Origin: Escherichia coli
GTDB lineage: Bacteria > Pseudomonadota > Gammaproteobacteria > Enterobacterales > Enterobacteriaceae
NCBI RefSeq assembly: GCF_048403405.1
Contig: NZ_CP183129.1
Reading direction: 5' to 3' (one strand)
DNA: 64,000 nucleotides
In this document: positions 27,657 to 33,600 of the stretch, piece by piece
Numbering within the stretch: position 1 is the stretch's first letter
Layout of the letters: every line of letters starts with the position of its first letter
Program-made: the position numbers

Positions 27657-30600
27657 TAATTGTGTGGACTGGCATCCGTTGGGTGCTGGTCCGTATTCTT
27701 CAGCACAGCTGACGGCGCATAACCAAATTTATGTTTAAAGGCTTTGCTGAAATGAAAGGAGTCGAAGAAGTTGAGCGTATCAGCGACTTCGCCAACCGAG
27801 TTCCCTTGTTGCTTTAATAGCGATAGCGCCAGATCCAGACGTGCATTGAGGTAATATTCTTTCGGCGTCTTGCCGGTATAGCGTAAAAACAGACGACGCA
27901 ACCAGGCTTCGCTACAGGGGATCGTGGCAGCCATATCAGCTACGCTCCAGCGTTGTTGCAGATTGGCATGTAAAGTGGCAATTAGTTTTTCAATTTGCCG
28001 CCGTTGTGGATCTTTTTTACCGTCTGCGTACATAAGACAAATCCACTGATAAATAATTTTCGTCAGAAAAGCGACTGCCAGATTATTTTTTATTGCTTCT
28101 GGTGAAGTTATTAACTCAGCAACTTCGGTGAGTTCCTGATTATAAATTTCGCCATTATAAATAACGCTTTGCTGACCAACGGGAATATCCATCATACTGG
28201 TGGGGGTAAATTCCATCCAGTACTGTTCCCAGACTAAACCTTCACAGTGATAAGAGTGAATATCCATTGGCTTTAAAAATATAATACAGTTGCCATGCAG
28301 AGTTATTTGTTCACCATTCTTTAAAATAATTTTCCCACATCCTTGTACGGTATACACCGCAACCCATGAGTTGGCGATAAGCGGTTTCTTCTTGTCCCGC
28401 GGCCAGATCACCCGGTAATGCTCGTCGGCGTAGGTATGCCAGAGCGAGATCAGAGAAATTCCGCTGGAGATCACATTTTCGTTAATCAATAAGGGAATAT
28501 TGTACGGAGTTTCGTTTTTTACATCTGAACTTTGCAATTTTCCATTCATTTTAATATCCCTCCGGCGAATTATGCTCACAACCTGAACTTAACAGAAAAC
28601 AATCCGTTCAGGGATACGACGTTTGTATTTTAAGAATCTGACTGCCTGACCCGACGCATTTTACCTCTCCCTATATTTATGCGTCCGGGACATAAACATA
28701 AATAAGGGCTATGAGATGAATTCGTTACAAATCTTGAGTTTTGTCGGTTTTACGCTGCTGGTGGCGGTCATCACCTGGTGGAAGGTCCGCAAAACAGATA
28801 CCGGATCGCAACAAGGCTATTTTCTTGCCGGACGTTCACTAAAAGCGCCGGTTATTGCCGCTTCGTTAATGTTAACCAACCTTTCCACGGAACAACTGGT
28901 TGGACTTTCCGGGCAGGCCTACAAAAGCGGCATGTCGGTGATGGGCTGGGAAGTCACTTCTGCGGTGACGCTGATCTTCCTCGCGCTAATCTTTTTACCG
29001 CGCTATCTGAAGCGTGGCATTGCCACCATCCCCGATTTCCTGGAGGAACGTTATGATAAAACGACGCGTATTATCATCGACTTCTGCTTCCTCATTGCCA
29101 CCGGTGTCTGCTTTCTGCCGATTGTTCTCTACTCCGGCGCGTTGGCGCTCAACAGCCTGTTTCACGTCGGGGAATCGTTACAAATTTCCCACGGCGCAGC
29201 GATCTGGCTACTGGTTATTTTGCTTGGTCTGGCGGGAATTTTGTATGCGGTAATCGGCGGACTGCGCGCAATGGCAGTGGCGGACTCCATCAACGGTATT
29301 GGGCTGGTTATTGGCGGGTTGATGGTGCCGGTATTTGGCCTGATCGCGATGGGCAAGGGCAGCTTTATGCAGGGCATTGAGCAACTCACCACCGTTCACG
29401 CCGAGAAATTAAACTCAGTCGGTGGCCCGACCGATCCCTTGCCGATTGGCGCGGCATTTACCGGTTTGATTCTGGTGAACACCTTTTACTGGTGTACAAA
29501 TCAGGGCATCGTGCAACGCACGCTGGCGTCAAAAAGCCTGGCGGAAGGGCAAAAGGGGGCGCTGTTAACGGCGGTGCTGAAAATGCTCGACCCGCTGGTA
29601 CTGGTGCTGCCAGGGTTGATTGCGTTTCATCTGTATCAGGATTTACCGAAAGCCGATATGGCTTACCCGACGCTGGTCAATAACGTTCTGCCAGTGCCAC
29701 TGGTGGGCTTCTTCGGCGCGGTGTTATTTGGTGCGGTGATCAGTACCTTCAACGGCTTTCTGAATAGCGCCAGTACGTTATTCAGTATGGGTATTTACCG
29801 GCGCATCATTAACCAGAATGCCGAGCCGCAACAGCTGGTCACCGTCGGGCGCAAATTTGGTTTCTTTATCGCCATCGTTTCGGTGATGGTCGCGCCGTGG
29901 ATTGCCAACGCGCCGCAGGGGTTGTATAGCTGGATGAAACAGCTCAACGGTATTTACAACGTGCCGCTGGTTACCATCATCATTATGGGCTTTTTCTTCC
30001 CGCGAATTCCGGCGCTGGCGGCAAAAGTGGCGATGGGGATTGGCATAATCAGCTACATCACCATCAACTATCTGGTGAAGTTCGACTTCCATTTCCTCTA
30101 TGTGCTGGCCTGTACGTTCTGTATCAACGTGGTCGTGATGCTGGTGATCGGTTTTATCAAACCGCGCGCCACGCCGTTCACCTTCAAAGATGCGTTTGCG
30201 GTGGACATGAAACCGTGGAAAAACGTCAAGATCGCGTCAATTGGTATCCTGTTCGCGATGATTGGCGTCTATGCCGGGCTGGCTGAATTCGGCGGCTACG
30301 GTACGCGCTGGTTAGCGATGATCAGTTATTTCATTGCCGCCGTAGTGATTGTCTACCTGATTTTTGACAGCTGGCGGCATCGTCACGACCCAGCCGTAAC
30401 CTTTACTCCCGACGCGAAGGATAGCCTATGAAACGCCCCAATTTTCTGTTCATCATGACCGATACCCAGGCCACCAATATGGTCGGTTGCTATAGCGGTA
30501 AACCGCTGAATACGCAAAATATTGATAGTCTGGCGGCGGAAAGTATTCGCTTTAATTCCGCCTACACCTGTTCACCGGTTTGTACACCAGCGCGCGCCGG

Positions 30601-33600
30601 GCTGTTTACCGGTATCTACGCTAACCAGTCCGGCCCGTGGACCAATAACGTCGCGCCGGGCAAAAACATCTCCACTATGGGACGCTACTTTAAGGATGCG
30701 GGCTATCACACCTGTTACATTGGCAAATGGCATCTCGACGGTCATGACTATTTCGGCACTGGCGAGTGTCCGCCGGAGTGGGACGCTGATTACTGGTTCG
30801 ATGGGGCGAACTATCTTAGCGAACTGACGGAAAAAGAGATTAGCCTGTGGCGCAATGGCCTAAACAGCGTCGAAGATTTACAGGCGAACCATATTGACGA
30901 AACCTTCACCTGGGCGCACCGCATCAGCAATCGGGCGGTAGATTTTCTGCAACAGCCCGCGCGCGCCGAGGAACCCTTCCTGATGGTGGTTTCGTATGAT
31001 GAGCCGCATCACCCGTTCACCTGTCCGGTGGAGTATTTAGAGAAATACGCTGATTTTTACTACGAACTTGGCGAGAAATCACAGGATGACCTGGCGAACA
31101 AACCGGAACATCACCGCTTATGGGCGCAGGCGATGCCATCGCCAGTCGGTGATGACGGGCTTTATCACCATCCGCTCTATTTTGCCTGCAATGACTTTGT
31201 TGATGACCAAATCGGACGGGTCATCAATGCCTTAACGCCAGAGCAACGTGAAAATACGTGGGTTATTTATACCTCCGATCACGGCGAAATGATGGGCGCA
31301 CATAAGCTGATCAGTAAAGGAGCGACGATGTATGACGACATCACCCGTATTCCGCTGATCATCCGTTCGCCGCAAGGGGAGCGGTGACAGGTCGATACGC
31401 CAGTCAGTCATATCGATTTACTGCCGACAATGATGGCGCTGGCAGATATTGAAAAACCAGAGATTCTGCCGGGGAAAATATCCTTGCCGTGACAGAGCCA
31501 CGCGGCGTGATGGTGGAATTTAACCGCTACGAGATTGAGCATGACAGCTTTGGCGGTTTTATTCCGGTGCGTTGCTGGGTGACGGATGACTTTAAACTGG
31601 TACTCAACCTCTTCACCAGTGATGAACTTTACGATCGCCGTAATGACCCAAATGAAATGCATAACCTGATCGATGATATCCGTTTTGCCGACGTTCGCCG
31701 CAAAATGCATGACGCCTTATTGGATTACATGGACAAAATTCGCGATCCGTTCCGCAGTTATCAATGGAGCCTGCGTCCGTGGCGTAAAGATGCACGACCT
31801 CGCTGGATGGGGGCGTTTCGTCCACGCCCACAAGATGGCTATTCGCCAGTGGTACGCGACTATGACACCGGCCTACCGACACAAGGGGTGAAGGTGGAAG
31901 AGAAAAAACAGAAGTTCTGATGCATTATTGCTGTTCCTGGCCTACTTTTTCGGCGAGGAACAGTTTACAAGGAGCAACAATGAAAATTTCCCGCCTCGGA
32001 GAAGCACCTGATTATCGCTTCTCGCTGGCTAATGAGCGTACTTTTCTGGCGTGGATCCGTACCGCACTAGGATTTCTGGCGGCGGGGGTTGGGCTTGACC
32101 AACTTGCGCCAGATTTCGCCACGCCCGTCATTCGCGAACTGCTGGCGTTGTTGTTGTGTCTGTTTTCCGGCGGGTTAGCGATGTATGGCTACTTGCGCTG
32201 GTTACGCAATGAAAAAGCGATGCGTCTGAAAGAGGACCTGCCCTATACCAACAGCTTATTAATCATCAGCTTAATATTGATGATCGTGGCGGTGATCGTC
32301 ATGGGACTGGTGTTGTATGCCGGATAGCCGCAAAGCCAGACGCATTGCCGACCCAGGGCTGCAGCCGGAGCGCACATCACTGGCGTGGTTTCGTACCATG
32401 CTGGGCTACGGCGCGTTGATGGCGTTGGCTATCAAACACAACTGGCACCAGGCGGGCATGTTATTCTGGATTTCGATTGGCATCCTCGCCATCGTGGCGC
32501 TGATCCTCTGGCACTACACCCGTAATCGCAATTTAATGGATGTCACGAATAGCGATTTTTCCCAATTTCACGTAGTCCGTGACAAATTTTTGATCTCCCT
32601 CGCGGTGTTATCTCTCGCAATACTGTTTGCTGTAACGCATATACATCAACTTATCGTATTTATTGAGAGAGTCGCATGACAGGAAGTCAGGTCATTGATG
32701 CTGAAGAGGACAGGCATAAACTGGTTGTAGAGTACAAGGATGCTCTGCAACCTGCCGATTTTTATCACAATTTCAAACAACGGGGTATCCGCTCCGTACA
32801 GCTCATTCCCCATCTTGAATTTGATGACCGGGGCGATCTGACGGCCGCTTCGGTGACAGCAGAGCTGTGGGGGAAATTTTTAATTGCCCTGTTTGAGTGT
32901 TGGGTGCGGGCAGATATCAGTCGTATCTCGATTGAGCTTTTTGACGCCACCTTACAAAAATGGTGTGGCAGCGAAAACCCGCAACCGCGCCGTGGCTGCC
33001 AGGCGTGCGACTGGCATCTGCTGTGTCCGCACGCTCGGGAGGAGATGCCAGACAGCGTGCTTTGTGCGGGCTATCAGGCGTTTTATTCTTACTCTGCGCC
33101 GCATATGCGGGTGATGCGTGATCTGATAAAGCAGCATCGTTCTCCCATGGAGCTGATGACGATGCTGCGGTGACGTGAGCTTAAACGGGCTGCCCCTGAT
33201 GCGACATCCGCGTCGCCAGCGGTAGCCAGCACAGCACGATCAACAATCCCATTAAGGTCATCAACAACCCCAGGCTGCCCTGACCGGTTTGCGGCAACAT
33301 CGCAGAGAGCGACGCCAGCACGCCGGAACCAATGTTTTGTAGACCGCCGACCAGCGCGCCAGCCGTGCCCGCCAGGAAGGGGAACGGTTCCATCGCGCCG
33401 CTGGTCGCCAGCGGAAACAGCATCCCGGCACCGAAAAAGAACAGCGCGGCGGGAACGAGCAGCGTCCAGACATTCATCACGCCAAACCAGTCGGGGATCC
33501 ACATCAGCAAGCCAGCCAGCAGGCAGCAGATAACCGACTGCCACATCAACGTTGAGAAGCGTTTATTAGGACGTCCGGCAAACCATGCCCCAAAAAATGC

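What the first reader, a model, noticed from the sequence alone, without database searches (positions are those of the whole stretch)
30428..31920. Sulfatase gene yidJ carries two inactivating lesions
The ORF has a proper sulfatase active-site motif (CSPVCTPARAGLFTG) but stops at an in-frame TGA (31385-31387); sensible sulfatase sequence continues in the same frame beyond it. About 85 bp further on, a run of four G (31471-31474) appears to have lost one G, shifting to the frame of the downstream ORF (restoring it gives …PGENILAVTEPRGVMVEF…). Two independent lesions argue for real pseudogenisation rather than a single sequencing slip, though a homopolymer error remains possible for the second. 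The neighbouring yidK symporter and yidL regulator are intact.
Basis: seen in the sequence. Interest (0 to 1): 0.5.

Follow-up and report, generated by a model that had tools for sequence, protein, structure and literature searches.

The report
Strain-private double-hit yidJ sulfatase pseudogene
In this E. coli strain the putative sulfatase gene yidJ is broken by a stop codon and a one-base deletion 85 bases apart; I found these in no other sequence searched, so this is an ordinary, very recent gene loss (or partly an assembly error), not a new kind of feature.

Summary
yidJ (30428-31920, +) has an in-frame TGA at 31385-31387 and a G4 run at 31471-31474. Intact orthologues have CGA and G5. Against the closest complete genomes (MS 69-1, TUM14771 and others, intact 497-aa YidJ) these two lesions are the only differences in 1,493 bases.

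Both lesions are private to this assembly. None of about 5,100 complete E. coli genomes has either 61-mer. The 319-aa product is absent from a 15-billion-protein collection. Across the 64 kb the window differs from MS 69-1 at only 7 positions. All 7 are derived in the window and none is synonymous. One is another homopolymer deletion.

yidJ is otherwise under strong purifying selection (dN/dS 0.04-0.11) but is missing from about 5% of genomes. yidK and yidL are identical to the relatives.

Best reading: a very young, strain-specific pseudogene. The 319-aa fragment keeps the CTPAR motif but lacks the C-terminal third of the fold. A consensus error at one or both sites cannot be excluded without reads. 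Two lesions 85 bp apart are not clearly independent. Ordinary; low interest.

The parts
30428..31920 (+). yidJ pseudogene. The full extent corresponds to the intact 1,494-nt gene and is 1,493 nt here.
   Evidence: 99.9% identical to annotated yidJ of six complete E. coli genomes. The only differences are the two lesions.
30428..31387 (+). Remaining N-terminal ORF of 319 codons plus TGA. Its start overlaps the yidK stop (ATGA).
   Evidence: ORF list. It matches positions 5-336 of the 486-position arylsulfatase profile NF010322.
30569..30613 (+). Sulfatase signature CSPVCTPARAGLFTG (residues 48-62). The C-x-P-x-R core is C52-T-P-A-R56, and C52 is the presumed formylglycine precursor.
   Evidence: Read from the sequence. 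It aligns with the equivalent motif of the solved S1 sulfatase 9ihk. The role of the residue is inferred from family knowledge.
31385..31387 (+). Lesion 1: premature TGA (Arg320 CGA to TGA, C to T at 31385). The next base is C.
   Evidence: CGA is present in MS 69-1, K-12, O157 and 042. None of 5,110 genomes matches the 61-mer exactly, and a metagenome scan gave no hits.
31471..31474 (+). Lesion 2: G4 run where intact alleles have G5. This is a -1 frameshift at codon 349/350.
   Evidence: None of 5,089 genomes matches the 61-mer exactly.
31490..31492 (+). TGA reached in the shifted frame (codon 355). It would end any product that read through the first TGA.
   Evidence: Translation of the ATG frame...EILPGKISLP*.
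31477..31920 (+). C-terminal remnant in the original reading frame (Asn351-Phe497 plus stop). It is no longer connected to a start codon. The listed GTG ORF 31489-31920 lies inside it.
   Evidence: Identical to the relatives' sequence. It carries most of the SGSH_C-like C-terminal subdomain, which spans residues 299-434.
28716..30431 (+). yidK, a solute:sodium symporter, intact at 571 aa. It is the upstream gene and overlaps yidJ.
   Evidence: ORF list. No difference from MS 69-1, TUM1226, GN02461 or TUM14771. Annotation.
27656..28549 (-). yidL, an AraC-type regulator transcribed divergently, intact.
   Evidence: ORF list and annotation of the relatives. No differences.
32676..33173 (+). yidF, a 165-aa fragment of an anaerobic sulfatase maturase. 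It has this form in K-12 and the relatives too.
   Evidence: It matches only positions 160-245 of the 363-position profile TIGR03942. The gene has the same length in K-12 and MS 69-1.

Best explanation
yidJ in this strain is a very young pseudogene specific to the strain. On the terminal branch leading to this genome, a C-to-T transition turned Arg320 (CGA) into TGA. A one-base deletion in a G5 run then shifted the frame at codon 349/350, 85 bp downstream. The order of the two events is unknown, and whichever came second was neutral. The only product left is a 319-aa N-terminal fragment. It keeps the C-x-P-x-R motif but lacks the end of the sulfatase domain and the whole C-terminal subdomain, so it is expected to be inactive (inferred, not shown). 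yidK and yidL remain intact. If the locus imports and desulfates a sulfated solute in the cytoplasm, the strain has lost the desulfation step. Shown: the lesions, that they are private to this assembly, that the relatives are intact, and that the gene is constrained across the species. Inferred: that the lesions exist in the cell, that the fragment is inactive, and what the locus does.
For: The two lesions are the only differences from the intact alleles of the closest genomes. All four close relatives carry CGA and G5, as do K-12, O157 and 042. The Pfam Sulfatase domain spans residues 4-341 and SGSH_C spans 299-434. Solved S1 sulfatases align through about residue 444, so a stop at codon 320 removes about 30% of the fold. 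yidJ is constrained across the species (dN/dS 0.04-0.11), so this is the loss of a working gene and not further decay of an old relic. It is also dispensable: 295 of 5,426 complete genomes have no match. The window's 69 homopolymer runs of 6-8 bases all keep the relatives' length, and the two deletions hit a T4 and a G5 run. This does not look like length-dependent homopolymer miscalling. The source genome's protein has a RefSeq WP_ accession, so it is also held in RefSeq.
Against: There is no independent support. The 319-aa product and the C-terminal ORF are absent from the 15-billion-protein collection, and no encoding contig is on record. No complete genome or metagenome contig shares the TGA. 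The window has 7 private differences in 64 kb, against 0-2 private differences in each of four relatives over the stretches compared. These include two homopolymer deletions and a C-to-A change that creates an A9 run. That pattern would also fit an imperfect consensus. The G5-to-G4 change also occurs in three unrelated, indel-ridden metagenome contigs, so this site can be miscalled.
Confidence: 0.6

Rival explanations
1. One or both lesions are consensus or assembly errors of this single assembly, and the strain's yidJ is intact or carries only one lesion.
For: Both lesions are unique to this assembly. They lie 85 bp apart, while the mean spacing of private differences is about 9 kb; any two of seven fall within 86 bp by chance with P about 0.056. 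The window has more private differences than any relative. Two are -1 homopolymer deletions and two others sit in homopolymer-rich contexts. G5 to G4 at this site recurs in noisy metagenome assemblies.
Against: The C-to-T change is not in a homopolymer and not at a Dam (GATC) or Dcm (CCWGG) site (sequence). All 69 runs of 6 or more bases are correct, which argues against systematic homopolymer error. A random erroneous substitution creates a stop only about 3% of the time. The source genome's protein has a RefSeq WP_ accession, which hints at an accepted assembly but does not test its accuracy.
Confidence: 0.32
2. The two lesions come from one clustered mutational event (for example an error-prone repair patch) or from a mutator episode, not from two independent hits over time.
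For: The lesions are 85 bp apart. The private spectrum of the window is 4 transitions, 1 transversion and 2 homopolymer -1 deletions, with no synonymous change. This resembles a mismatch-repair-deficient spectrum and unselected accumulation.
Against: Only seven events are available, and transitions dominate natural variation anyway. The relatives' few differences are also mostly nonsynonymous. No repair gene lies in the window to inspect.
Confidence: 0.15
3. Loss of YidJ was selected in this lineage. The second lesion secures a leaky first one, because TGA followed by C is a weak stop context.
For: A nonsense and a frameshift in the same gene are unlikely under random placement (P about 0.01). 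The stop is TGA-C. That UGA-C terminates weakly is from my own knowledge and was not tested here.
Against: No other genome shows these or parallel lesions in the sets searched. The species keeps the gene under strong constraint. One lesion is enough for loss. The finding came from a scan of many windows, so a 1% coincidence is not compelling.
Confidence: 0.05
4. The gene is still expressed full-length by programmed recoding (stop read-through plus a +1 frameshift), or it is a phase-variable contingency locus.
For: None beyond the presence of a short G run and a TGA-C stop.
Against: Every other allele examined has a plain open frame of 497 codons. G5 is too short for efficient phase variation, and no complete genome has G4. 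Two separate recoding events 28 codons apart would both be needed.
Confidence: 0.01

Closest known systems
yidJ (b3678) of E. coli K-12 and its orthologue WP_000828517.1 in strains MS 69-1, TUM14771, TUM1226 and GN02461
   Same: Same locus and gene order (yidL | yidK-yidJ ... yidH-yidG-yidF | emrD). The sequence is identical to WP_000828517.1 once the two lesions are repaired.
   Different: The reading frame is interrupted at codon 320 and shifted at codon 349/350. The intervening gene yidI of K-12, O157 and 042 is absent in this lineage.
S1 family formylglycine-dependent sulfatases (Pfam PF00884; solved relatives 9ihk S1_30A, 6pt4 exo-2S-iota-carrageenan sulfatase, 5g2v GlcNAc-6-sulfatase)
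   Same: The repaired protein has the Sulfatase domain (4-341, E 2.7e-71), the C-terminal SGSH_C-like subdomain and the C-x-P-x-R motif. It aligns over residues 2-444 with solved enzymes.
   Different: It has no signal peptide: the domain starts at residue 4, whereas the solved homologues align from about their residue 25. This suggests a cytoplasmic enzyme. The substrate is unknown, and papers that mention yidJ call it only 'putative sulfatase/phosphatase'. In this strain the fold is truncated.
Lineage-specific pseudogenes of the same chromosomal neighbourhood, such as glvG in K-12 and the yidF maturase fragment
   Same: These are small point lesions or truncations in accessory catabolic genes near oriC that differ between E. 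coli lineages.
   Different: glvG is decayed in K-12 but intact here (440 aa). yidF is truncated in all strains examined. The yidJ lesions are confined to this one genome.

Membership tests
yidJ orthologue group (E. coli putative sulfatase) | Position between yidK and yidH/yidI, with the start overlapping the yidK stop | tested here: met
yidJ orthologue group (E. coli putative sulfatase) | High nucleotide identity over the full gene length | tested here: met
   100% coverage and 99.9% identity to six genomes; 95-99% identity to more than 5,100 genomes.
S1 formylglycine-dependent sulfatase | Pfam Sulfatase domain (PF00884) plus the C-terminal subdomain | tested here: met
   Met for the repaired or intact sequence. 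The ORF actually present covers only profile positions 5-336 of 486.
S1 formylglycine-dependent sulfatase | C/S-x-P-x-R signature for formylglycine formation | tested here: met
   C52-T-P-A-R56 at 30581-30595.
S1 formylglycine-dependent sulfatase | Uninterrupted reading frame giving the complete fold | tested here: not met
   TGA at codon 320 and a -1 frameshift at codon 349/350.
S1 formylglycine-dependent sulfatase | Sulfate-ester hydrolase activity and formylglycine maturation | not testable with these tools
The adjacent maturase gene yidF is only a fragment.
Pseudogene (recent, strain-specific) | Disabling lesions relative to intact orthologues that are under purifying selection | tested here: met
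   Lesions; dN/dS 0.04-0.11.
Pseudogene (recent, strain-specific) | Lesions present in the organism and not only in the consensus sequence | not testable with these tools
   No reads are available. No independent assembly carries the allele.
Phase-variable contingency locus | A long repeat tract whose length varies among close relatives | tested here: not met
   The run is G5 in all complete genomes examined, and none has G4. The only G4 copies are in noisy metagenome contigs.

The most novel reading that the evidence does not exclude
The source strain went through a mutator or otherwise unselected burst of mutation. That would explain a terminal branch of about 1 change per 9 kb with no synonymous changes. 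In that setting yidJ took two hits in one 85-bp patch, either from a single error-prone repair event or because losing the cytoplasmic sulfatase helps this clone.
Probability: 0.1. Interest if true: 0.3.

Novelty: already known. Interest (0 to 1): 0.1.

Why it matters
It matters little beyond annotation. The locus should be marked as a yidJ pseudogene and not as two short sulfatase-like genes. If the lesions are real, the strain is a natural yidJ knock-out with its symporter and regulator intact, next to otherwise identical yidJ+ relatives. That could help in finding the substrate of this uncharacterised, conserved sulfatase. The excess of private, non-synonymous and homopolymer changes in the window also flags the source assembly for a quality or mutator check.

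Tried and rejected
1. I guessed that the window came from E. coli UMN026, because that record is missing from the collection. I rejected this. The window's private T387K protein is XPM02851.1, locus tag ACKVDN_01660, on a 5,471,390-bp contig, and I recall the UMN026 chromosome as about 5.2 Mb.

2. I looked for sister assemblies through exact-protein look-ups. The 319-aa and 143-aa yidJ products are not on record. The T387K protein has no indexed contig. The DnaA P111S variant exists on other contigs, but these are other backgrounds (about 96-98% identity, tnaA next to mnmE) with T4 at the 11296 site, so they say nothing about this lineage.

3. The metagenome scans gave no TGA allele. The three G4 hits are unrelated alleles full of other indels, so they do not confirm the lesion.

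4. I tested whether the private A-to-G change in IS200C was copied from another IS200 copy. Only 4 of 2,466 records carry that 61-mer, so it is a rare point change.

5. I tested whether the iatC change was conversion from a neighbouring repeat. Eleven repeats have GATGTCAG and only one other site has GATGCCAG, so this is unlikely.

6. The literature has no functional study of yidJ and no report of its inactivation.

7. I considered recoding and phase variation and rejected both (see rival explanations).
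Full report
**Observation**

The region reads as the first-stage reader described. An ATG at 30428 overlaps the stop of the upstream 571-aa symporter gene as ATGA. It opens a frame that carries CSPVCTPARAGLFTG at residues 48-62 and stops at a TGA at 31385-31387 after 319 codons. Sulfatase-like sequence continues in the same frame for 29 codons, up to a run of four G at 31471-31474. After that the sense sequence lies in the frame of the ORF that ends at 31920. 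In the original ATG frame a second TGA follows at 31490-31492.

**Identity of the gene and nature of the lesions**

- A megablast of 30428-31920 against 5,426 complete E. coli genomes found the gene in 5,131 of them, always on the chromosome and annotated yidJ.
- The six best hits are 99.9% identical and one base longer.
- Alignment with strain TUM14771 shows exactly two differences. One is C to T at 31385, turning CGA (Arg320) into TGA. The other is the loss of one G from a G5 run.
- K-12, O157:H7 and 042 also have CGA and G5.
- Gene order is that of the K-12 yid cluster: glv genes, yidL (-), yidK, yidJ, yidH, yidG, yidF, emrD (-).

**What is lost**

The intact protein has a Pfam Sulfatase domain at residues 4-341 and an SGSH_C-type C-terminal subdomain at 299-434. 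It aligns over residues 2-444 with solved S1-family sulfatases. The 319-aa ORF covers only positions 5-336 of a 486-position arylsulfatase profile. It keeps the C-x-P-x-R motif but lacks about 30% of the fold. I infer that it is inactive; this was not tested. The domain starts at residue 4, whereas the solved homologues align from about their residue 25, so YidJ probably has no signal peptide. The likely role of the locus is therefore uptake of a sulfated solute by YidK followed by cytoplasmic desulfation (inference). Papers that mention yidJ call it only a putative sulfatase/phosphatase.

**Is the gene normally functional?**

Pairwise dN/dS among the MS 69-1, K-12, O157 and 042 alleles is 0.04-0.11, with dS about 0.09-0.11. 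The gene is therefore under strong purifying selection in the species. It is also dispensable, since 295 of 5,426 complete genomes have no match. The window's copy has no change other than the two lesions, so the inactivation is extremely recent.

**How private are the lesions?**

- Sixty-one-base queries centred on each lesion found no identical copy among about 5,100 genomes that hold the region. Nearly all differ by the single lesion.
- The exact 319-aa product and the 143-aa downstream ORF are absent from the 15-billion-protein collection, and no encoding contig is on record. The intact protein is on 282 contigs.
- A scan of 241 million metagenome records found no copy of the TGA 30-mer.
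- The G4 30-mer occurs in three metagenome contigs. These are different alleles (96-98% identity) with 1, 9 and 11 other gap openings in the gene, and one has 2.3-fold coverage. They are noisy assemblies. They show only that this run can be miscalled.

**The wider window**

The whole 64 kb aligns with strain MS 69-1 with only seven differences. At all seven, TUM1226 and GN02461 agree with MS 69-1; TUM14771, fetched only for 6501-56400, agrees at the five sites in that stretch. All seven are therefore derived in the window:

| Position | Change | Effect |
|---|---|---|
| 4928 | C to T | DnaA P111S |
| 11296 | loss of one T from a T4 run | intergenic, between yidB and yidA |
| 31385 | C to T | yidJ Arg320 to stop |
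| 31470 | loss of one G from a G5 run | yidJ frameshift |
| 35302 | A to G | 14 bases before the IS200C tnpA start |
| 41194 | C to A | T387K in a hypothetical protein; creates an A9 run |
| 59294 | T to C | V2123A in iatC |

None is synonymous. The relatives have 0-2 private substitutions each and no private indels over the stretches compared. The window's genome therefore has a long terminal branch of unselected-looking changes. This fits either a mutation-rich history (4 of 5 substitutions are transitions, plus two homopolymer deletions) or an imperfect consensus.

The T387K protein exists in the protein collection once. It is XPM02851.1/WP_418512394.1, locus tag ACKVDN_01660, on a 5,471,390-bp contig. 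That contig is very probably the source genome.

**Chance and independence**

Placing five substitutions and two indels at random in the 64 kb gave these results:
- Two hits in one gene other than iatC: 26% of trials.
- A nonsense and a frameshift in the same gene: 1.0% of trials.
- Any two changes within 86 bp: 5.6% of trials.

The pairing is therefore unlikely to be two unrelated random events. But that holds equally for random errors and for random mutations, and the finding was selected from a scan of many windows. The closeness of the lesions fits three readings: neutral decay after a first hit, a single clustered event, or a local consensus problem.

One internal check leans slightly towards real mutations. 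The stretch holds 69 homopolymer runs of 6-8 bases, all with the relatives' length, while the two deletions hit a T4 and a G5 run. That is not what length-dependent homopolymer miscalling would give. The C-to-T change is not at a GATC or CCWGG site.

**Verdict**

The deposited sequence encodes no functional YidJ. The most likely reading (about 0.6) is a genuine, very recent pseudogene specific to this strain. The main rival (about 0.3) is that one or both lesions are assembly errors. Recoding and phase variation are rejected because every other allele is a plain 497-codon frame and no complete genome has G4. This is a known gene disabled in an ordinary way, so interest is low. Reads or Sanger resequencing of 31300-31550 would settle it.

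Noticed in passing
window 31921-31979: yidI is absent in this lineage. In K-12, O157:H7 and 042 this 450-nt gene sits on the opposite strand between yidJ and yidH. Here and in MS 69-1, TUM1226, GN02461 and TUM14771, yidJ and yidH are only 59 nt apart.
   Followed up: partly
window 32676-33173: yidF (165 aa) is only a fragment of an anaerobic sulfatase maturase. It matches positions 160-245 of the 363-position TIGR03942 profile and lacks the N-terminal radical-SAM part. K-12 has the same form, so YidJ maturation cannot depend on this neighbour.
   Followed up: partly
window 4928, 11296, 35302, 41194, 59294: There are five further differences private to this genome: DnaA P111S, loss of one T from an intergenic T4 run, A to G 14 nt upstream of IS200C tnpA, T387K (creating an A9 run) in a hypothetical protein, and V2123A in iatC. 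None is synonymous. The relatives have 0-2 private changes each, so this points to a possible mutator history or a consensus-quality issue.
   Followed up: partly
window 24720-27659: The glv locus is intact here: a fused 1,617-nt PTS gene and a 440-aa 6-phospho-alpha-glucosidase. In K-12 glvG is a pseudogene and the PTS component is split into glvB and glvC.
   Followed up: no
window ~35240-35950: An IS200C copy (tnpA 35316-35774) is inserted between tisB/istR and ivbL-ilvBN. The close relatives share it, but it is not in the stretch of K-12 fetched, which ends at istR. The private G at 35302 is a rare IS200 variant, found in 4 of 2,466 records.
   Followed up: partly
window 52927-62601: iatC, an inverse autotransporter adhesin gene of 3,224 codons, has about 14 tandem copies of a 291-bp repeat (roughly 56361-60447, 84-86% identity between copies). 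It is followed by the HilA-like regulator gene eilA at the window's right end.
   Followed up: no
DnaA, window 4598-6001: The exact DnaA P111S protein also occurs on at least eight other contigs from unrelated E. coli backgrounds (about 96-98% nucleotide identity, K-12-like tnaA flank). The substitution is therefore recurrent or an old polymorphism elsewhere in the species.
   Followed up: yes
protein collection (not the window): The 90%-identity cluster holding YidJ also lists 571-aa YidK symporters, and the DnaA cluster lists GyrB and DnaN. These look like chaining artefacts through fused or read-through gene calls, so cluster sizes there should not be read as family sizes.
   Followed up: no
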